From assembly GCA_046562895.1 (NCBI GenBank), contig CM102164.1, forward strand, positions 32,779,842 to 32,843,841: a stretch of 64,000 nucleotides of DNA, given 5' to 3'. Source of the DNA: Trichechus inunguis (Eukaryota). The notes under the pieces are model-generated. The model saw only the letters and a list, made by a program, of their open reading frames with translations, was not told the origin of the DNA and ran no database searches. The translations under genes were made by a program, and so were the position numbers. Below, piece by piece: positions 1 to 48,250 of the stretch (its first letter is position 1; every line of letters starts with the position of its first letter).

Positions 1-647
1 TAATATACAAGGCATAGTTTTTACAGAACCCTAAATTTATTTCACAGATGCATTTTTGTCAAGTTCATATCAATATCCCTGTTTATTTCCATGAGAGATG
101 CAAAGTTTCATATAAAGGGTGGGGGGAGGGAAACACTTTCAAGTAGGCCTAGTTAGAATTTTTTGTATGTGGAAAAACAAAAAGTGACTAGACCAGGGCC
201 AGCCTTGTTGGGCATTGTAAAACTGTACAAATAGATTGATGCATAATAAGAATTTCAGTCCCTAAAGAAGATTCCTGGATATTTTTATACAGTTGATGTT
301 CTTCATTCTCCCTGACTCCACACTTAAAATCCCCAGAAGTTTGCTTCCCCTTTCCTGTTATCTCGGTGCTTTGAAGTCAATAGGTCCGGATTATAATAAA
401 ATATGACAAGGGCTGGCAGCTACCAGACATAGCATCAGCAGTTCTCAGTGATGGTATCCTGCTCATTGAGTGAGGATTGCATTCTGTACTAGGAGGATGA
501 AACATGTAACTCCTGCAGAGCCAGTGAGGCCTCTACATAGTCTATGACCCTCATCATCCTGCCTCCTCAAGACTTTTCCCAGGGGTTCAGATATGACCTA
601 GAATGCTAAGGTAGAAGTCAAACTGGTTGGTGGCCCTTACCATAACT

Positions 648-866
648 AGCCCAAACAAAAAAAACCAAACCTGTTGCTGTCTAGTCGATTCTGACTCATA
701 GCGACCGTAGGACAGAGTAAAACTGCCCCACAGGGTTTCCAGTGCTGTAAATCTTTACAGAAGCAGACCGCCACATCTTTCTCCTGCGGAGCAGCTGGTG
801 GGTTTGATCTGCCGACCTTTTGGTTAGTAGCCGAGTGCTTTAACCACTGAGCCACCAGAGCTCCAT
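648..866 (-). mobile_element. AfroSINE (tRNA-derived afrotherian SINE), full length
   Basis: Reverse complement reads ggagctctggtggctcagtggttaaagcactcggctactaaccaaaaggtcggcagatcaaacccaccagctgctccgcaggagaaagatgtgg...ctatgagtcagaatcgactagacagcaacagg with a poly-T/A flank. The 69-aa ORF at 646-855 is an artefact of this SINE. Confidence 0.8.
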
Positions 867-1394
867 ATATCCAGCCACAGATGTGTTTTATTTATTCTGA
901 CAGTGTTTTCAAAAAATTGTTTTAGTTACTTGAATTTATGGGGGATTGTTCCCAAAGACACATATTTCTTAATTTTCTTGAAAAATATGATGACCTGGCT
1001 ATACTGCATTCCCGTTTTCACATGGCAGAGTTGAGTAGCAGCTCACATTCCAATCTCACAAGAACTTTGTTGAGCTGCAGTACCTACCTGGCCTCTTCAC
1101 TTATTTTGCTCTTTGCCAGTAACTGAAGTCATCTGAGTTTTTAACACCTCTATGAGTTTCTGGAACAGCTGTTGCACTACCCCCATAGGAAAGAAACCCT
1201 TGATATTTGCACCAGAAGGCCTTCCTATTTCCACAGAATCCTCCAAGGCCAGTCCAAAGAGATAAACTTCTTCCCTTGTACCTTTGTGATTCAGGCATCA
1301 CAGTGGTTTCAAAAGAGAAACAGCATTTTCACTATCCAGACGTCTCAGAGAAATTCATTGCTTCGTTGTATAACAGTTAAGAGCAAAGTTCTTA

Positions 1395-1520
1395 AAGTCA
1401 GATAGACCTGGACTTGAATCTTGGTTAGACCAGTTACTGGCTTTGTGCAAGTTATGTAGCCTCAGTGTTCTCATTAGTGAAATGGGGCTAATAACAATAC
1501 CTACTTCCATGGCTTATGAG
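1395..1520 (+). mobile_element. MIR SINE fragment
   Basis: MIR core-like ...gcctcagtgttctcattagtgaaatggggctaataacaatacctac... matches the MIR consensus gcctcagtttcctcatctgtaaaatggggataataatacctac. Confidence 0.55.
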
Positions 1521-2003
1521 GAGCGGAGACAAGAAGAGGCCAGGAGGATCACTGAAGCAGGGCTGCCTCACATTCAGGAAGGGCCACATCAGCATTAGGG
1601 CTTATGATGATCTCTCTAAATGAGTTAGGTATGTTATCATTTTTAATGTTATCATAGTTAATTTTAAGATATACTACAATTTTGTAATATTTTTAGCATT
1701 TCTTTTATTAATCCAAGAGCCTAAAAAAATTGAAAGGGCTCTAGACTTCCCTTACCCTTTGAGAGGCCATTTCTCCTTCATAAGTTGAAGAAGAAAATCC
1801 ATGTAAAGCACTCAATGCACTGCCCAGCTCCCAGTAAGTGCTCAGATAGGAATATCATTCTACTGACTTGTGACTAAGGATACATGTTCCAGTCTTATGC
1901 ACAATAATATTCCAGAGTAAACATTCACAGGCTTTAAAATGTATAATAGTAATTTCATTTGATAATGTCTGTTTTGGTTTCACCCAATTGTGATTCGATA
2001 TAG

Positions 2004-2126
2004 GATGAGAATGAGTCACCTTTTCCTAATATTCCAAATATTTTGGAACTTATTGCCAAAGAAGATGTGGACTTTCTGCCATACATAACTTGGCAGGAGG
2101 AGCAATCAGGTGCCAGCATGACACAG
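2004..2126 (+). CDS. Candidate internal coding exon of host gene (DENESPFPNIPNILELIAKEDVDFLPYITWQEEQSGASMTQ)
   Basis: Acceptor ...cgatatag|GATGAG and donor ACACAG|gtaaat. The 123 bp are open in exactly one frame, the other two frames have stops, and the length is a multiple of 3. Confidence 0.5.
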
Positions 2127-2699
2127 GTAAATGTTAATTACCAAATAAATTAGTATTGTATTTTTATATTTTCATGATGGTGAGGGATCTAAAATAGCAC
2201 CCTTGTGACCTGTATAGCAGAAACTGTTGTCTCCCTGATGATGAAAAATTTTTGCACATTTATGAAAATGTGCGTGACTGAGGAAGATGTATCAGGTAGA
2301 CATTCGAACTGAGAGCCCAGGGTAGTTGTAAATTACAAGAGAACAAGTGTGGTTAAGCTTCATTCATGGACAGATAAACAGAAAATTAAAATCATTTACT
2401 CTAGGGAGCCACATCCCCAAGGAAACTCCCTTTCAGCTGATTGGCTGCTCATGACAGATCTCATCATGGAGGTGATTACATTATATCAGATCTCATTCTG
2501 GAGGTGATTACAGCTGCCAAAACACATCATAACTGCCAAACCACTGAGAATCATGGCCCAGCCAAGTTGACAGAAAACCTTAACCATCACACTTCCATAG
2601 TCACAAGCCTACTAGATAAAAGAGAAATTGTAGTTGCCACAGAATAGATAGGTTGTGGCAGGGCTAGATGAGTGGACATGGCACAACTAGGCATCTCAA

Positions 2700-3060
2700 A
2701 CCCATTTTGGAATGAGCCAAAGCTATAAACCAAAACTATATTAAAAAGCTAGCAGCAAGTTGGTCTTTGAATAGTGTTTCCAAAATCTGCAAGACATTTA
2801 GACATATGACAAATAAAATCCAAAGACAATAATGAACTGGGAAAAAATATTTGCAACAGACAGATTAACTTTTTTAATATATAAAGAGCTCTCGAAAATT
2901 ATTAAAAAGACCAGTAATCCCATAGGAAAATAGGCAGAGTTTGATCATATATAAGCAAATAGTATGACTCTTAAACATATGAGAGATGCTCAACCTCATT
3001 GTTGCCGAGAAAAATGCCAATTAAGAATCCAGTGAAATTCTATTTTTTTTAAATCTATCA
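2700..3060 (+). mobile_element. Ancient L1 ORF2 C-terminal fragment
   Basis: Sense-strand remnants of the L1 ORF2 tail (aaaaagaccagtaatcccataggaaaataggcagag...catatgagagatgctcaacctcattg...), heavily diverged. Confidence 0.45.
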
Positions 3061-3123
3061 GAATGGCAAAGATCAAAAAGGAAGATAAGTGGAAGGTCAT
3101 AAAATATAGCAGTTAAGAAAACA

Positions 3124-3320
3124 GGAGTTATGGTTTGAATCCCAGCCCCACTTAACTAGCTCTGTGACCTTAACCTCTCAGTGCTCCAATTCTTTGTGCT
3201 CTAAAATGGTGACAATAATTAAACCTATCTCACAGAGTTGTTGTGAATAGTAAATGAATTAGTACATGTAAGACCTTGAGAACATGTCTCATTCTTGGTA
3301 GGCATTCAATAATGTTAGCA
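3124..3320 (+). mobile_element. MIR SINE
   Basis: ggtttgaatcccagccccacttaactagctctgtgaccttaacctctcagtgc...ctcacagagttgttgtgaatagtaaatgaattagtacatgtaa corresponds to the MIR consensus core and 3' region. Confidence 0.65.
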
Positions 3321-5639: not shown

Positions 5640-6060
5640 GAGTTCCATTTATTGAACATCCCCCACATGTCTGTCAGTTTGTCATACTGTAGTGACTTGT
5701 GTGTTGCTGTGATGTTGAAAGCCATACCACTGGTATTTCAAATACCAACAGGGTCACCCGTGATGGACAAGTTTCAGCAGAGCTTGCAGACTCAGACAGA
5801 CTAGGAAGAAAGGCCTGGTGATCTACTTCCAAAAATTAGCCAAGGAAAATCCTATGGATCATAACAGAATATCATCGAGTACAGTGCTAGAAGATGAGCG
5901 CCCTAGGTTGGAAGGCACTCAGTACACAGTGGCTGCAACAATGGACACAAGCATACCATGATTGTGAAGATGGTGCAGGACCCGGCAACGTTTCCTTCTG
6001 TTGTACGAGGGGTCACCATGAGTTGGAGCCGACTTGATAGCAACTGACAAAAACAGCAGC
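5640..6060 (+). mobile_element. RTE/BovB internal-deletion derivative (5'UTR joined directly to 3' end)
   Basis: 5640-5905 matches the RTE 5' leader and ORF start and is the reverse complement of 27480-27650. It runs straight into the RTE 3' terminus (...ggaaggcactcag|tacacagtggctgcaacaatggacacaag...ggtcaccatgagttggagccgacttgatagcaactgacaaaaaca). Confidence 0.55.
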
Positions 6061-26244: not shown

Positions 26245-27060
26245 TATTTTATTGTATATTAGGTGAAAGTTTACAGAGCAAATTAGTTTCCCATTCAACA
26301 AATTGTCCACAAGTGTTCCATGACATTGGTTGCAATCCCCACACTCAGCACTCTTCCTATTTCTGCCCTGGCTTCCCGGTTTCCTTTCATCTGGTGTTCC
26401 TACCCCTTGCTGCCTTCTCATCTTTGCTTTTGGGCAAATGTTGCCCTTTTGGTCTTGTATAATTGACTGTTCTATGGAGTAAGTTCTTTTCATATGTTAT
26501 TGTTTATAGGCCTGTCTATTGTTTGGCTGGAAAGAGGTTTCCAGGAATGGCTGCTGTTCCAAATCAGAGGGGTGTCTTAGGGCCATAGTCTCAGGGTTCG
26601 TCTAGTCTCTAACAGGTCAATAAGTTTTGTCTTCTTTTATGAATTTGATTTTCTGTTCTACATTTTTCTCCTGTTCTATCCTGGACTCTACTGTGATCCC
26701 GGTCAGAGCAGTCACTAGTGGTAGCCGGGCACCATCTATTTCTTCTGGGCTCAGGTTGGTGGAGGCTGTGGTGCATGTGGTCCATTTGTCCTTTGGACTA
26801 ATTGCTCCCTTGAGTCTTGGTTTTCTTCACCCTCCTTTGCTGTGGATAGGAAGAGACCACTAGTTATATCTTAGATGGCCACTCACAGGCTTTTAAGACC
26901 TCAGATGTTACTCACCAAAGTAGGATGTAGAACATTTTCTTTATATACTATGTTATGCCAGTTGACCTAGGTATCTGCAGAGAGCATGGTCCCCAGCCCT
27001 AAGCCCCAGCAACTTGATCCCTCAAGGTGTTTAGTTATGTCTAGGAAGCTTGTATGACTT
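26245..27060 (-). mobile_element. 5'-truncated L1 insertion (3'UTR only)
   Basis: attttattgtatattaggtgaaagtttacagagcaaattagtttcccattcaac... through ...ctaggaagcttgtatgactttgccttggcc, the L1 3'UTR in antisense. Confidence 0.75.
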
Positions 27061-27062
27061 TG

Positions 27063-27655
27063 CCTTGGCCAAGAGGATAGATTTTGAAATGTTCTTTTTG
27101 ACGCAGTTCCTCTTTAGTTTATCATTCCTGGCATAGTAGACCATATGATTGTCTGATTCAAAATGGCCAGTTTCACCTTACTAATGCCTAAGATACTGAT
27201 CTTCAAGCATTCCATTTCATGTTTGACAACTTCCTATTTTCCTAGATTCATAATTCGTACATTCCAATTATTAATGGATGGTTGCAGCTGTTTCTTCTCT
27301 TTTTGAGTTGTGCCACATCAAATGAAGGTCCAGAAAGCTTTACTCCATCCACATCATTAAGGTCAACTCTACTTTGAGAAGGCAGCTTTCCCCCAGTCAT
27401 ATTTTGAGTGCCTTCCAAGTGGAGGGGCTCATCTTCTGGCGTTATATCAGACATTGTTCTGCTGCTATTAATAAAGTTTTCATTGGCCAATTTTTTTAGA
27501 AGTAGATCACCAAGTCCTTCTTCCTAGTCTGTCTTAGTCTGGAAGCTCCACTGAAACCTGTCCACAATGGATGACCCTGCTGTTATTTGAAATACCGATG
27601 GGATAGCTTCCAGCATCATAGCAACACACAAGCCACAACAGTACAACAGATCATC
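27063..27655 (-). mobile_element. RTE/BovB 5' fragment (5'UTR + start of endonuclease ORF), inverted relative to the adjoining RTE
   Basis: Minus ORF 27248-27490 (...EDEPLHLEGTQNMTGGKLPSQSRVDLNDVDGVKLSGPSF...CNHPLIIGMYEL) is the N-terminus of the RTE endonuclease ORF. 27480-27650 is the reverse complement of the RTE leader seen at 5700-5880. Confidence 0.6.
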
Positions 27656-29850
27656 AGACAGAACAAGGCCAAGGGCTGCCTGTGGAACAGATCTTCAATT
27701 GCTCGTATGCAAGTTCAAGTTGAAGCTGAATAAAATGGAAACAAGTCCACGAGAGCCAAAGTGCGACCTTAAGCATATCCCACCTGAAATTAGAGACCAT
27801 CTCAAGAATAGATTTGATTCATTGAACACTAATGACCAAAGACCAGATGACTTGTGGGAAGACATCAAGGATATCATACATGAAGAAAGAAAAAGGCCAT
27901 TAAAAAGACAGGAAAGAAAGAAAAGACCAAAATGGATGTCAGAAGAGACTCTAAAACTTGCTCTTGAATGTAGAGTAGCTAAAATGAACAGAAGAAATGA
28001 TGAAGTAAAAGACCTGAACAGAAGATTTCTAAGGGCTGCTTGAGAAGACAAAGTAAAGTATCGTAATGACATGTGCAAAGACTTGAAGCTAGAATACCAA
28101 AATGGAAGAACACGCTTGACATTTCTCAAGCTGAAGAAACTGAAGAAAAAATTCAAGTCTCGAGTTGCAATATTGAAAGATTCTATGGGGAAAATATTAA
28201 ACAATGCAGGAAGCATCAAAAGAAGGTGGAAGGAATATACACAGAGTCACTGTACCAAAAAAACTGATCGACTTTCAACCATTTCAGGAGGTAGCATATG
28301 ATCAAGAGCTGATGGTATTGAAGGAAGAAGTTCAAGCTGCACTGAAGGCATTGGTGAAAAACAAGGCTACAGAAATTGACAGAATAGGAATTGAGATGTT
28401 TCAACAAATGGACATAACACTGCCAACAGTCACTTGTCTGTGCCAAGAAGTTTTGAAGACAGCTACCTGGTCAACTGACCAGAAGAGATCCATATTTGTG
28501 CCCATTCCAAAGGAAGGTGATTCAACAGTATGGGGAAATCATCGAACAACATCATTAATATCACATGTCAGTAAAATTTTGGTTAAAATTATTCAAAAAT
28601 GGTTGCAGCTTTACATTGACAGGGAACTGCCAGAAATTCAAGCTGGATTCAGAAGAGGATGTGGAACCAGCGATATCATTGCTGATGTCAGATGGATCTT
28701 GGCTGAAAGCAGAGAACACTGGAAAGATGATTTACCTGTGTTTCATTGTCTATGCAAAGGCATTCGACTGCGTGGATCATAACAAAATATGGATAACATC
28801 GCGAAGAATGGGAATTACAGAACAATTATTCTCATGCGAAACCTGTACGTAGAACAATAGGCAGTTGTTTGAACAGAACAAGGGGATACTTTGTGGTATA
28901 AAATCAGGAATGGTTTGTGCCATGATTGTATCCTATCACCGTACTTATTCAGTCTGTATGCTGAGCAAATAATCTGAGAAGCTGGACTATATGACTAAGA
29001 GCGCAGCATGAAGATTGGAGGAAGACTAACAATCTGCGATATACAGATGACACAACCTTCCTTGCTGAAAGCAAAGAGGACTTGAAGGACTTACTGATGA
29101 AGATCAAATACTTTAGCCTTCAGTATGGATTACACCTCAACATAAAGAAAACAAAAATTCTCACAACTGGACCAATAAGCACCATCATGATAAACAGAGA
29201 AAGGATCGAAGTTGTCAAGGATTTCATTTTACTTGGATTCACAATCAACACCCATGAAAGCAGCCATCAAGAAATCAAACGATGTATTGCATCAGGCAAA
29301 TCTGCTGCAAAAGACCTCTTTAAAGTGTTAAAAAGCAAAGATACCACTTTGAGGGCTAAGGTGCACCTGACCCAAGCCATGGTATTTTAAATTGCTTCAT
29401 ATGCATGGGAGAGCTGAACAATGAATAAAGAAGACCAAAGAAGAATTGATGCATTTGGATTATGGTGTCAGTGAAGAATATTGAATATACCATGGACTTC
29501 CAGAAGAAGGAACAAATCTGTCTTGGAAGAAGTACAGCCAGAATGCTGCTTAGAAGCGAGGATGGCACAACTTCATCTCATGTACTTTGAACATGTTATC
29601 AAGAGGGACCAGTCCTTGGAGAAGGACATCATGCTTGATAAAGTAGAGGGTTTGTGAAAAAGGAAAACCCTCAGTGAGGTGAATTGACACAGTGGCTGCA
29701 ACCATGGGCTTAAACATAGCGACAATTGTGAGGCATAACAACAATTGTGAGGATGGTGCATGACCAGGCAGTGTTTAGTTCTGTTATACATGGGGTAGCT
29801 ATGAGTTGAACCGACTGGAGGGCACCTAACAACAAGAACAACACTATCTA
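27656..29850 (+). mobile_element. RTE/BovB LINE, 5'-truncated (end of EN, RT domain, C-terminus, 3' end)
   Basis: Plus ORFs 27699-28043, 28204-28782 (RT: ...QKRSIFVPIPKEGDSTVWGNHRTTSLISHVSKILVKIIQKWLQLYIDRELPEIQAGFRRGCGTSDIIADVRW...), 28565-28852 and 29082-29390. The tail ends ...ggggtagctatgagttgaaccgactggagggcacctaacaacaagaacaa. Confidence 0.8.
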
Positions 29851-29874
29851 GAGAGTGAATCCTGCCCATCCCTC

Positions 29875-30745
29875 TCTCCCCCCTTTCCTGGTATCCACTA
29901 TGAACATTAGTTTCTGTATAATTACCTGTTTATGTCATTTCATAAAGTGAGAATATGCAATATTTGTTATTTTACAATTGACTTATTTCACTCGACATAA
30001 TTTCTCTCAGGTTCATCCATGTTCCAAGATGTTGTGGGAACTCATTTCTCTTTATCTTTGAGTAGTATTTCATTGTAACATATTTCAGTTATCCATTCAT
30101 CTGTTGACAGGCATTTAGTTTGTTTCCATCTTTTTGCTGTTGTGAATAGTGCTGCTATGAACATCGTTGTGCATGTGTCCGTTCATGTCACTTTTATTAG
30201 ATCCCTAGGGTATATACCTGGAAACCCTGATGGCATAGTGGTTAAGAGTTCGACTGCTAACCAAAAGGTCAGAAGTTTGAATCCACCTTGGAAACCCTAT
30301 GAGGCAGTTCTATAGGGTCGCTATGAGTTGGAATCGACTCGACGGCAATGGGTTTGGGTGGTTTTTTTTTTTTGTTTTTGGTTTAGGGTGTATACTTTGG
30401 AGTGGAATTGATGGGTCATATGGTAGTTATTTGCAAAACAGCCATTGTCTTCCACGATGCCTGTACCATTTTTCATTCCCATGAGCAATGGATGAGGCCT
30501 CCAATTTTTCCACATCCTCTCCAACACTTGTTCTCTTCTGTTTTTTTGTTTGTTTTGTTATTTTTTTATCTTAGCAATTGTAGTGTTAGTGAAATGGTGT
30601 CTCATTGTGGTTTTGATTTGCGTTTCTCTGATGGCTAATGACATTGAGCATCTTTCATGTGAATATCCTCTTTGGTGAAGTGTCTGTTCATGTCCTTTGC
30701 TCAGTTTTTGGTTTGGTTATTTGTCTTTTTGTTGTTAAATTACAT
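29875..30745 (-). mobile_element. Old L1 ORF2 3' fragment, split by an AfroSINE
   Basis: Antisense L1 ORF2 tail (...tgacttatttcactcgacataatttctctcaggttcatccatgttccaag... ...ggctaatgacattgagcatctttcatgtgaatatcctctttggtgaagtgtctgttcatgtcctttgc). Confidence 0.6.
30218..30385 (+). mobile_element. AfroSINE nested in the old L1, flanked by a ~12-bp target-site duplication
   Basis: ggaaaccctgatggcatagtggttaagagttcgactgctaaccaaaaggtcagaagtttgaatccacc...ctatgagttggaatcgactcgacggcaatgggtttgg plus a T/G-rich tail. The flanks tagggtatatac and tagggtgtatac look like a TSD. Confidence 0.8.
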
Positions 30746-46879: not shown

Positions 46880-48250
46880 AGCAACACCAGCAGTCAACGA
46901 ATGGCACTCAGAGAGCCAGCCAGTGTGGGCTGGTGTTTCTGGACAAGAGATTGTGTCCGTGGGAAACAGAGGAGGCCGAGTGTGAAGAAGGGTGGAGAGT
47001 GGGAAAGCGTATATCACAAATTGCCTGCGCTCTGGGGACCCTCAGGAAGGAGCAAAGAGGGTGCACGGAGCCAGGAACCTGAGTGAAAGGAGGGGGAGGC
47101 GGTGAGAGGCAAGCGAGAAACCAAAAGAAGCAGGAGAAAAAAAAAAAAGCAGCACCAGCAGCCAACAAACGGCACCCAGAGAGCCGCCCGCCCGGGCGCG
47201 CGGAATCCAAGCAGCCGGCGGCCCCCGGTGAAGAGGCTGCGGCCGCGAGGAGTAGAGGAGCAAACGAACGAAGGCCCCGGGATCTCACCAGCGCGGCAGC
47301 CCAGACCTGGAAGCAGCCGCACGCCCGAACGTAGCCCCACAGCCCCGCAGGAAAGGGCAAAGACGGCGCTCGGAACCAGGCACATGAGCAAAAGGAGGGG
47401 GAGGCAGCGAGAGGCAAGCGAGAAACCAAAAGAGGCAGAAAAAGTAACACCAGCAGCCAACAAATGGCACCCAGAGAGCCGGCCGCATGGGAGCGTGGAA
47501 TCCAAGCAGCCGGCGGCCTCGGGTCAAGAAATTGCGGCCGTGGGGAGCAGAGGAGCAAACGAACAAAGGCCCCAGGATCTCACCAGCACAGCAGCCCAGA
47601 CCTGGAAGCAGCCGCACTCCCAAACGTAGCCCCACAGCCCCGCAGGAAAGGGCAAAGACGGTGCTCGGAGTCAGGCACCCGAGCAAAGGGAGGGGGAGGC
47701 AGCGAGAGGCAAGCGAGAAACCAAAAGAAACAGAAAAAGAAAAGAAAAAAAAAAATAAAAGCAACACCAGCAGCCAACAAACGGCACCCAGAGAGCCGCC
47801 CGCCCGGGCACGCAGAATCCAAGCAGCCGGCGGCCCCCGGTCAAGAAACCGTGGCCGCAGGAAGCAGAGGAGCAAACAAACAAAAGCCCTGGGATCTCAC
47901 TGGCGCAGCAGCCCAGACCTGGAAGCAGCCGCATGGCCGAATGTAGCCCCACAGCCCGGCAGGAAAGGGCAAAGACGGTGCTCGGAGCCAGGCACCCGAG
48001 CAAAAGGAGGGGGAGGCAGCGAAAGGCAAATGAGAAACCAAAAGAAGCAGAAAAAGCAACACCAGCAGCTGACAAACGGCACCCAGAGAGCCGCCCACCC
48101 GGGCTCGTGGTATCCAAGCAACCGGCGCCCCCCAGCCAAGAGACCTTGGCCACGGGAAGCAGGGGAGACCCAGCCGGGACGAAGAGGGGTGGGGGGTGGG
48201 AAAGCGCACACCGCAAATTACCGGCTGTTTTGTCTCCCACTGGATGCTCC
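46880..48250. repeat. Tandem array of ~4-5 CpG-rich ~295-317-bp monomers forming the L1 5'UTR (a putative monomeric L1 promoter)
   Basis: The motif acaccagcagccaacaaa(c/t)ggcacccagagagccgcccgcccgggc...aaggagggggaggcagcgagaggcaagcgagaaaccaaaaga recurs at ~46882, 47152, 47447, 47764 and 48059. Copies are ~90 % identical and differ mostly by CpG to TpG/CpA changes. Confidence 0.8.

What the first reader, a model, noticed from the sequence alone, without database searches (positions are those of the whole stretch)
27063..29850. Head-to-head RTE/BovB pair resembling a twin-priming inversion with internal deletion
A minus-strand RTE piece covering the element's 5'UTR and the first ~90 codons of the endonuclease ORF (27063-27655) abuts, at a single junction, a plus-strand RTE that starts near the end of the EN domain and runs to the canonical 3' tail (27656-29850). 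An inverted 5' segment next to a co-linear 3' segment of the same element, with the middle missing, is the signature of twin priming as described for L1. An alternative is two independent RTE insertions.
Basis: inference. Interest (0 to 1): 0.5.

Follow-up and report, generated by a model that had tools for sequence, protein, structure and literature searches.

The report
Inverted-head RTE retrotransposon copy, twin-priming-like
This is an old, dead copy of an elephant-type RTE jumping gene sitting inside an L1 element, with its front end flipped against its rear part and the middle missing; it was most likely made in one insertion in which DNA copying started from both broken ends ("twin priming"), which is ordinary except that this mechanism is documented for L1 rather than for RTE elements.

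Summary
Window 27074-27649 (-) is RTE positions ~9/20-627, covering the 5'UTR and ORF codons 1-143. Window 27650-29843 (+) is RTE positions 1054-3240, ending in the canonical (CAA)-type tail. The 426 nt between them, the endonuclease core, is absent from the whole window.

Both flanks belong to one minus-strand L1 (ORF2 C-terminus and 3'UTR), so the pair occupies a single site. The two arms are equally diverged from a consensus of 13 other copies: 12.3±1.4% and 12.9±0.7%, where other copies range from 3.6 to 19.7%.

The predicted target-site duplication is missing. Instead, about 40-80 bp of L1 is lost, and there is no microhomology at the outer end of the inverted arm.

Elephant loci fetched for comparison supply a positive control. 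L003 is a textbook 5'-inverted RTE with a perfect 10-bp duplication, 8 nt of which pair with the internal priming site. Several other 5'-inverted copies have internal gaps of 24-2754 nt.

Best reading: twin priming, either atypical or followed by a ~0.5-kb deletion across the left junction. It is a new member of a known kind, and interest is low to moderate.

The parts
26570..27073 (-). Left flank: 3'UTR of the host L1 (minus orientation). L1 similarity ends at 27061-27073, depending on the comparator.
   Evidence: blastn and local alignment to five or six other L1 3' ends in the window.
27074..27649 (-). Inverted RTE arm (piece A): element positions ~9/20-627. The 5'UTR lies at 27473-27649 and ORF codons 1-143 at 27074-27472. 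The last 6 nt (27644-27649, CAACAG) are ambiguous or filler.
   Evidence: blastn to L001 at 79.4% identity. Consensus blast gives positions 9-627. tblastn places P0030 aa 1-~143 at 27472-27074. MAFFT alignment of the ends.
27650..29843 (+). Direct RTE arm (piece B): element positions 1054-3240. It covers the last ~15 EN codons, the linker, the RT domain, the 3'UTR and the (CAA)-like tail.
   Evidence: blastn to L001 at 82.8% identity. tblastn with P0030, P0001 and P0002. RVT_1 hit on the ORF at 28204-28782. Tail alignment.
29844..30219 (-). Right flank: the same host L1, covering the ORF2 C-terminus (aa ~1178-1223 of human ORF2p) and the start of the 3'UTR. L1 similarity resumes at 29843 by the closest comparator, r7k.
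   Evidence: Minus-strand translation matches PDB L1 ORF2p chains at E=1.3e-8. Comparator copy matches at E=8.5e-31.
30220..30384 (+). AfroSINE inserted in the same L1, with a 12-bp TSD TAGGGT(A/G)TATAC at 30206-30217 and 30384-30395. It serves as an internal control showing that TSDs of RTE-driven insertions are still readable in this L1.
   Evidence: Sequence read directly. TSD script found 11 of 13 identical positions, or 11 of 12 for the 12-bp TSD proper. RTE-tail match at 30312-30347.

Best explanation
A single RTE (RTE1_LA/BovB-type) retrotransposition into the 3' end of an older minus-strand L1 produced both pieces by twin priming.

Inferred steps:
1. The RTE endonuclease nicked the bottom strand at the right junction (~29843). 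[quoted passage not shown]
2. The 3' end of the broken top strand, on the left, primed a second reverse transcription inside the same RNA (or a second RTE RNA) at position ~627. This ran to within ~10-20 nt of the RNA 5' end and produced the inverted piece A.
3. The two cDNA 3' ends were joined at 27644-27650. Positions 628-1053 were left uncopied.

The missing TSD, the loss of ~40-80 bp of L1 and the lack of microhomology at 27073/27074 have two possible causes that I cannot separate:
(i) The top-strand break lay upstream of the first nick, so the target site was truncated during the event.
(ii) A classical TSD-flanked twin-primed copy later lost about 0.5 kb in one ordinary deletion across the left junction. 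That deletion would have removed the left TSD copy, adjacent L1 and the outer part of the inverted arm. I consider this somewhat more likely.

Shown: the architecture, the coordinates, the single host site, the equal age of the arms, the absence of a TSD, and the existence of textbook twin-primed RTE copies in elephant. Inferred: the order of events and the choice between (i) and (ii).
For: Architecture and site
- The layout is [antisense 627->~9/20][sense 1054->3240 plus tail] with no more than 6 nt between the arms.
- Piece A lacks any 3' end, so ordinary TPRT cannot have made it.
- Both flanks are collinear parts of one L1 copy, 39-80 bp apart in L1 coordinates. The pair therefore sits at one site.

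Age
- The arms are equally diverged from a consensus that excludes them: A is 70/569 = 12.3±1.4% and B is 276/2144 = 12.9±0.7%. Without CpG sites the values are 11.7% and 12.0%.
- Thirteen other copies span 3.6-19.7%, so agreement this close is not automatic.

The mechanism exists in this family
- L003 (Loxodonta) has RTE 1-199 inverted next to direct 176-3229. It carries a perfect 10-bp TSD, GACATAAGGT, of which 8 nt are complementary to RTE 197-204, the internal priming site. Its arms are also equally diverged (3.9% and 3.6-5.4%).
- Further 5'-inverted copies have internal gaps of 24, 68, 1780 and 2754 nt, or a 14-21 nt duplication. The window's 426-nt gap is not unusual among them.

Literature
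- Twin-primed L1s are described as inversion-plus-internal-deletion products (PMC2837659).
- 5' inversion is proposed to need a 3' overhang long enough to pair with the RNA. RTE TSDs peak at 10-12 bp (PMC4245944, PMC6007223).
Against: - There is no TSD, although an AfroSINE 370 bp away in the same L1 keeps an 11/12 TSD.
- Instead of a duplication, 39-80 bp of L1 is missing.
- There is zero microhomology at the outer end of the inverted arm: base 27073 is G where antisense RTE has C. In L1, 95% of 5'-inverted copies show microhomology there, and all 17 cell-culture inversions had 10-17 bp TSDs (PMC2912911).
- Microhomology at the inversion junction cannot be resolved at 12% divergence.
- Three-prime-truncated RTE pieces also arise by other routes. 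L004a and L005a end at ~1893 and ~1939 without an inverted partner of the twin-priming type.
Confidence: 0.75

Rival explanations
1. A full-length plus-strand RTE inserted normally. Much later, one complex rearrangement (deletion-inversion-deletion, by NHEJ or a replication-based mechanism) inverted positions ~20-627. The same event deleted positions 1-~20 plus adjacent L1 and TSD on one side, and positions 628-1053 on the other.
For: It explains the missing TSD, the L1 loss, the internal gap and the lack of microhomology in one event. It also predicts equal divergence of the arms.
Against: One inversion breakpoint would have to fall by chance within ~20 nt of the element's 5' terminus, which is roughly a 7% coincidence given the span available. 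Such rearrangements are rare per 3-kb locus. By contrast, six independent 5'-inverted RTE events, counting this one, turned up in about 190 kb examined. Most of the inverted arms reach the RNA 5' end, and one has a TSD with 8-nt priming microhomology, which this model does not predict.
Confidence: 0.1
2. Two independent RTE insertions. A full-length minus-strand copy and a 5'-truncated plus-strand copy landed within a few bp of each other. Deletion(s) then removed the 3' 2.6 kb of the minus copy.
For: RTE1 is very abundant in elephant: 193,947 RTE1_LA copies (PMC6007223). Chance head-to-head neighbours do exist, for example L005 7416-7872(-) and 7915-9200(+). Old copies are often broken.
Against: This needs a second insertion within ~0-20 bp of the first copy's 5' end. 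It also needs a 2.6-kb deletion that ends at the L1 flank while removing only ~40-80 bp of L1. The arms are equally diverged. In the L005 chance pair the arms differ (19.7±1.9% and 12.7±2.5%), are separated by 42 bp, and run in the direction of their own 3' ends: the minus arm carries its tail, and the plus arm runs off the end of the fetched locus. Piece A has no tail and no TSD of its own.
Confidence: 0.07
3. The inversion was not made at this locus. The composite is a copy of an already rearranged RTE, either by segmental duplication or by re-mobilisation of a twin-primed copy through its intact 3' tail.
For: L007 42468-44255 and L008 10558-12292 share one and the same RTE inversion junction at 75% identity over 1.8 kb, in the introns of two different genes. 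Rearranged RTE composites therefore do get propagated.
Against: No second copy of the 27644-27650 junction was found in the ~190 kb available, although this has very low power. The homology of the flanks is to L1 in general, not to another locus. A re-mobilised copy should have a TSD, which is absent.
Confidence: 0.06

Closest known systems
L1 5'-inverted insertions made by twin priming (Ostertag & Kazazian 2001; statistics in Kojima 2010, PMC2912911; description in Meyer et al. 2010, PMC2837659)
   Same: Two segments of one LINE lie in opposite orientation. The inverted one is upstream and comes from more 5' element positions. The direct one ends in the intact 3' tail. There is an internal deletion at the inversion point, and the two arms are of equal age.
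   Different: The element belongs to the RTE clade: a single ORF, no poly(A), a (CAA)n tail and a length of 3.2 kb. The inverted arm reaches almost the RNA 5' end. There is no TSD and about 40-80 bp of target is lost. There is no microhomology at the outer junction. L1 inversions nearly always have 10-20 bp TSDs and microhomology.
Elephant RTE1 copy L003 (Loxodonta CM057421.1, reverse strand 181825408-181834367), found here
   Same: Same family and same layout. The inverted arm begins at the RNA 5' terminus and the two arms are equally diverged.
   Different: L003 is young (~4-5% diverged). It has a perfect 10-bp TSD with 8-nt priming microhomology and a 24-nt duplication at the inversion point. 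The window copy is ~12.5% diverged, has no TSD and has a 426-nt gap.
Dual priming, or twin priming in trans (Meyer et al. 2010, PMC2837659; inverted U5/L1 chimeras, Doucet et al. 2015, PMC4476161)
   Same: The second, top-strand priming may use a different RNA molecule. This would also give an inverted, 3'-truncated partner next to a normal LINE 3' segment.
   Different: Here both arms are RTE and do not overlap. One RNA cannot be told from two.
LINE insertions with target-site truncation (L-TST/S-TST classes in Yamaguchi et al. 2014, PMC4245944)
   Same: Target sequence is lost rather than duplicated at the insertion site.
   Different: In the L1 cell-culture data cited by Kojima 2010 (PMC2912911), target-site deletions were associated with 5'-truncated inserts, while the 5'-inverted inserts all had TSDs.

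Membership tests
RTE-clade LINE (afrotherian RTE1 / BovB-like) | A single long ORF encoding an N-terminal APE-type endonuclease followed by a reverse transcriptase. | tested here: met
   tblastn places P0030 aa 1-~143 and 287-483, and P0001 aa 293-965, on the two pieces. Pfam finds Exo_endo_phos and RVT_1 on the reference proteins, and RVT_1 on the window ORF at 28204-28782. The best protein hits are from Elephas, Loxodonta and Trichechus.
RTE-clade LINE (afrotherian RTE1 / BovB-like) | The 3' end has a short microsatellite-like tail, (CAA)n in animal RTEs, and no poly(A). | tested here: met
   The window reads ...GGCACCTAACAACAAGAACAAC at 29822-29843 and aligns with seven other copies ending in CACCTAACAACAACAAC. 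The (CAA)n tail is reported for animal RTE-clade LINEs in PMC6007223.
RTE-clade LINE (afrotherian RTE1 / BovB-like) | Nucleotide-level homology along the element to bona fide copies about 3.2 kb long. | tested here: met
   79-83% identity to the 3.24-kb Loxodonta copy L001 5805-9045, and 82-85% to the consensus.
Twin-primed (5'-inverted) LINE insertion | Two segments of the same element in opposite orientation, with the inverted segment upstream of the direct one and derived from more 5' element positions. | tested here: met
   Antisense 627->~9/20 lies immediately upstream of sense 1054->3240.
Twin-primed (5'-inverted) LINE insertion | The direct segment ends with the element's intact 3' terminus at the target junction, which is the site of first-strand TPRT. 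| tested here: met
   The canonical tail abuts L1 at ~29843.
Twin-primed (5'-inverted) LINE insertion | One pair of target-site duplications bounds the whole composite. | tested here: not met
   The longest exact repeat between the ends is 4 bp, and 438 of 500 shuffles are at least as good. The flanks leave a 39-80 bp gap in L1 coordinates, never an overlap. Control L003 has a 10/10 TSD, and the nearby AfroSINE has an 11/12 TSD.
Twin-primed (5'-inverted) LINE insertion | Microhomology between the target and the element at the outer end of the inverted arm, the internal priming site. | tested here: not met
   The junction reads CCAAG|AGGATAGA. The RTE antisense consensus continues ...ACTTC before AGGATAGA, so the overlap is 0 nt. 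Mutation since insertion could hide 1-2 nt.
Twin-primed (5'-inverted) LINE insertion | Microhomology or a small overlap at the inversion junction. | tested here: inconclusive
   Positions 27644-27649 (CAACAG) fit neither arm well. A relaxed alignment lets A run to 27660, overlapping B by 11 nt, but B's own consensus explains that stretch.
Twin-primed (5'-inverted) LINE insertion | Both arms date from the same event, shown by equal divergence, and occupy one insertion site. | tested here: met
   The arms are 12.3±1.4% and 12.9±0.7% diverged. Both flanks belong to the same L1 copy.
Two independent TPRT insertions | Each piece has its own 3' tail and its own TSD pair. | tested here: not met
   Piece A stops at element position 627 directly against L1, with no 3' part anywhere in the window. 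No TSDs were found.

The most novel reading that the evidence does not exclude
5' inversion by twin priming may be a frequent, regular outcome of RTE-clade retrotransposition in afrotherians, not an L1 speciality.

In about 190 kb of elephant-type sequence (the window plus eight loci) I saw six independent 5'-inverted RTE1 events, counting the window copy. By rough count that is about a fifth of all RTE insertions seen, and nearly half of those that retain 5' sequence. One is a textbook case with a 10-bp TSD and 8-nt priming microhomology.

At least one inverted composite appears to have been propagated afterwards (L007 and L008 share a junction).

This would fit the proposal that 5' inversion needs a 3' overhang long enough to pair with the RNA; RTE TSDs are 10-12 bp. 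It would also give a natural data set, with about 190,000 RTE1_LA copies, for testing that proposal.
Probability: 0.5. Interest if true: 0.45.

Novelty: new member of a known kind. Interest (0 to 1): 0.3.

Why it matters
For the genome, this locus is a neutral fossil: a dead RTE copy inside a dead L1.

Its value is mechanistic. Cell-culture work found 5' inversions essentially only with human L1 in human cells, and concluded that they depend on the LINE species and on the length of the target overhang (PMC4245944). In the paper library I could search, I found no report of twin priming for RTE or BovB elements.

This window copy, and especially the clean L003 control, show that RTE-clade elements make the same kind of product. 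RTE elements have a different tail-recognition mode and 10-12 bp TSDs.

There is also a practical point. Such head-to-head RTE pairs should be annotated as one insertion, not two, when counting or dating RTE/BovB copies in afrotherian genomes.

Tried and rejected
- Missing EN core. I looked for it elsewhere in the window with tblastn (P0001, P0030). Only distant L1 ORF2 hits appeared. A nested-insertion explanation, with the rest of piece A nearby, is therefore rejected.
- Species and orthologs. I tried an exact look-up of the window ORF 28204-28782, which is not on record. P0067 (manatee) is also not on record.
- Ostertag & Kazazian 2001 (PMC311219) is not held. I used secondary open papers instead.
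- Confirming the flanks as L1. Pfam gave no hit for the L1 ORF2 C-terminal translations. I confirmed them by matching PDB L1 ORF2p chains instead.
- Window 5660-5921. I first took it for another 'orphan' RTE 5' fragment. It is the head of a ~400-bp head-plus-tail internal-deletion derivative (5660-6059), so it is not evidence for or against twin priming.
- L005 7416-7872(-)/7915-9200(+). This looked like a second twin-priming case. I rejected it because there is a 42-bp spacer, the arms run towards their own 3' ends (the minus arm has its tail; the plus arm runs off the locus), and they differ in divergence, 19.7% against 12.7%.
- L004 5514-5596. This is a fold-back of RTE 1921-2003 next to position 1893. 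It does not have the twin-priming order and was left unexplained.
- Microhomology at the inversion junction. I tried to read it, but it is ambiguous at 12% divergence.
- Single-copy comparison. Identity to L001 alone (79.4% against 82.8%) suggested a small age difference between the arms. This disappeared once a multi-copy consensus was used.
Full report
**What the window is.** The region is mammalian repeat-rich DNA of afrotherian type.
- The RTE ORF pieces have their best protein matches in Elephas maximus, Loxodonta africana and Trichechus, at 72% identity.
- An AfroSINE sits at 30220-30384.
- I could not establish the species. An exact look-up of a window ORF found nothing.

**Checking the observation.** I obtained a full-length elephant RTE copy from the Loxodonta assembly through protein P0030. 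It is L001 5805-9045, 3.24 kb long, and its first bases are CCCCCAC. Three copies share that same 5' terminus.

| Piece | Window | Strand | RTE positions | Identity to L001 |
|---|---|---|---|---|
| A | 27074-27643 (to 27649/27660) | - | 26 (9-20 in other alignments) to 627 | 79.4% |
| B | 27650-29840 (to 29843) | + | 1054-3235 (3240) | 82.8% |

- These figures come from blastn. A consensus alignment gives A as positions 9-627 and B as 1054-3235.
- Six nucleotides (27644-27649, CAACAG) fit neither arm.
- The ORF start (P0030 Met1) maps to 27472. A therefore holds the 5'UTR and codons 1-143. B starts at codon 286/287.
- Pfam places the endonuclease domain at aa 72-301 of P0030. The 426 missing nucleotides are thus the endonuclease core.
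- No trace of that core exists elsewhere in the 64 kb.
- B ends in the family's canonical tail, GGCACCTAACAA(G)AACAAC.

**The surroundings.** Both flanks belong to one older L1 in minus orientation.
- The left flank (26570-27073) and the right flank (from ~29843) match five to six other L1 3' ends in the window, in collinear order.
- The minus-strand translation of the right flank matches the C-terminus of human L1 ORF2p, residues ~1178-1223, at E=1.3e-8. A comparator copy matches at E=8.5e-31.
- In every informative comparator the two flanks leave a gap of 39-80 bp of L1 (61 bp with the closest one, r7k). They never overlap.
- A direct search for a repeat between the ends found nothing beyond chance: 4 bp exact, equalled in 438 of 500 shuffles.
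- The RTE pair therefore occupies one site in the L1, with target loss instead of a target-site duplication.
- A TSD would have been visible. The AfroSINE 370 bp away, also mobilised by RTE machinery, keeps an 11/12 TSD.

**Age of the two arms.** I aligned 13 other RTE copies or fragments from the window and from elephant loci to L001. I then compared each window arm with a consensus that excluded both.
- A: 70/569 = 12.3±1.4%.
- B: 276/2144 = 12.9±0.7%.
- Without CpG sites: 11.7% and 12.0%.
- 437-bp windows along B range from 10.2% to 15.0%.
- The other copies range from 3.6% to 19.7% by a leave-one-out consensus, so the agreement carries some weight.
- The consensus is rough, only 3-7 sequences deep.

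**Does this family do twin priming at all?** The comparison loci answered this unexpectedly.

L003 (Loxodonta) is a textbook case:
- RTE 1-199 is inverted directly against direct RTE 176-3229, giving a 24-nt duplication.
- It is flanked by a perfect 10-bp TSD, GACATAAGGT.
- The last 8 nt of that TSD are complementary to RTE 197-204. That is exactly the pairing expected if the top-strand overhang primed internally.
- Both arms are 4-5% diverged.

Mapping RTE on all ~190 kb in hand showed more copies with the order [antisense 5' arm][sense 3' arm]:

| Locus | Inverted arm | Direct arm | Gap or duplication |
|---|---|---|---|
| L006 | 1-76 | 96/101-3235 | ~24-nt gap |
| L006 | 1-109 | 1842-3164 | ~1.7-kb gap |
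| L007 | 28-197 | 2952-3226 | 2.75-kb gap |
| L008 (read on its minus strand) | 227-1329 | 1309-3227 | 21-nt duplication |

- Most inverted arms reach the 5' end of the RNA.
- Large internal gaps are common. The window's 426-nt gap is unremarkable in this family.
- The sample is small and partly biased, because the loci were fetched through EN-containing gene models.

**Mechanism.** The best explanation is one retrotransposition with priming from both target strands.
- The first cDNA ran from the tail to position 1054.
- The second ran from ~627 to the RNA 5' end.
- The two were then joined.
- Twin-primed L1s are described in the literature as inversion-plus-internal-deletion products bounded by TSDs (PMC2837659).

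Three features depart from the L1 pattern: no TSD, loss of ~40-80 bp of target, and no microhomology at the outer junction. In L1, 95% of inverted copies show microhomology, and all 17 cell-culture inversions had 10-17 bp TSDs (PMC2912911).

Two variants account for this:
- (i) The top strand broke upstream of the first nick, giving a target-truncating event.
- (ii) A classical copy later lost ~0.5 kb in one deletion spanning the left junction. That single ordinary event would remove the left TSD, some L1, the priming microhomology and the outer part of the inverted arm all at once.

I cannot distinguish them with the data available. I give (ii) a slight edge.

**Rivals.**
- Two independent insertions would need a second hit within ~20 bp of the first element's 5' end. 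They would also need a 2.6-kb deletion ending neatly at the L1 flank. The genuine chance pair in L005 looks different: a spacer, arms running towards their own 3' ends, and unequal divergence.
- A later deletion-inversion-deletion of a full-length copy explains the missing TSD. But it needs a breakpoint coincidentally at the element's 5' end, and it does not explain why this layout recurs in the family.
- A copy of a pre-rearranged composite cannot be excluded without a genome search. L007 and L008 share one inversion junction at 75% identity over 1.8 kb, so this does happen.

**Comparison with what is known, and novelty.** The element is an ordinary member of the afrotherian RTE1/BovB-type family. 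PMC6007223 counts 193,947 RTE1_LA copies in Loxodonta, reports (CAA)n tails for animal RTE-clade LINEs, and cites RTE-clade TSDs of mostly 10-12 bp.
- The rearrangement works like L1 twin priming. It fails one defining test of the classical product, the TSD.
- Searches of the held literature for twin priming together with RTE, BovB or Bov-B returned no paper that describes it. The co-occurrence I checked in the paper matching all three searches (PMC6007223) is a citation of Ostertag & Kazazian in its reference list.
- Cell-culture work saw 5' inversions almost only with human L1 (PMC4245944).
- I therefore rate this as a new member of a known kind. The locus itself has low intrinsic interest. 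The family-level pattern has moderate interest.

Noticed in passing
L003 3753-7035 (Loxodonta CM057421.1, reverse strand 181825408-181834367): A textbook twin-primed RTE1 copy. Positions 1-199 are inverted against direct 176-3229. It has a perfect 10-bp TSD, GACATAAGGT, and 8 nt of that TSD are complementary to RTE 197-204, the region of the ORF start codon.
   Followed up: yes
L006 3035-4633 and 4665-7794; L007 9138-9583; L008 8867-11692: Four more 5'-inverted RTE1 copies, with internal gaps or duplications ranging from -21 to +2754 nt. Two of them lie only 31 bp apart in L006. In this small sample, 5' inversion looks about as common for RTE1 as it is reported to be for L1.
   Followed up: partly
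L007 42468-44255 versus L008 10558-12292: Two loci, in the introns of different genes (IFT43 in Elephas and YBX1 in Loxodonta), share the same RTE inversion junction. They also share ~650 bp beyond it, at 75% identity over 1.8 kb. A rearranged RTE composite seems to have been copied, by re-mobilisation or by an old duplication.
   Followed up: partly
L003 3782 and L007 9138: Two independent inverted arms end at almost the same element position (~200-204, at the ORF start codon, ...ACCTTATG...). This could be a preferred internal priming site or a coincidence.
   Followed up: no
window 5660-6059; L001 10453-10666: Short RTE derivatives made of the 5' head (positions ~1-264, or 107-210) fused directly to the last ~135 nt of the 3' end. 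They look like non-autonomous internal-deletion RTE elements.
   Followed up: partly
window 30220-30384: An AfroSINE with a (GGTTT)-like tail inserted in the same L1, flanked by a 12-bp TSD TAGGGT(A/G)TATAC. It was used here as a control for TSD detectability.
   Followed up: yes
window 47039-48167: A GC-rich (54%), purine-rich tandem array with a 295-317 bp unit in about 3.7 copies at 82-88% identity. It sits between stretches with the strong T-bias typical of minus-strand L1s. It may be an L1 5'UTR monomer array.
   Followed up: no
L004 3637-6002: A young RTE copy (positions 2-1893, plus strand) is followed immediately by an inverted 83-bp piece (2003->1921), then by an older minus-strand RTE 3' fragment. 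This is a fold-back that does not fit the twin-priming order.
   Followed up: no
L009 4813-6560: An RTE copy with a clean internal deletion: positions 9-1076 are joined directly to 2550-3233.
   Followed up: no
L002 (ENA ERZ25069412 contig ctg846445, 57 kb): An intact 1014-aa RTE ORF (P0001, 57% identical to the window's conceptual protein) lies between gag/protease and RT/RNase H/integrase genes of an LTR retrotransposon, in a metagenome-assembly contig of unknown eukaryotic origin.
   Followed up: no
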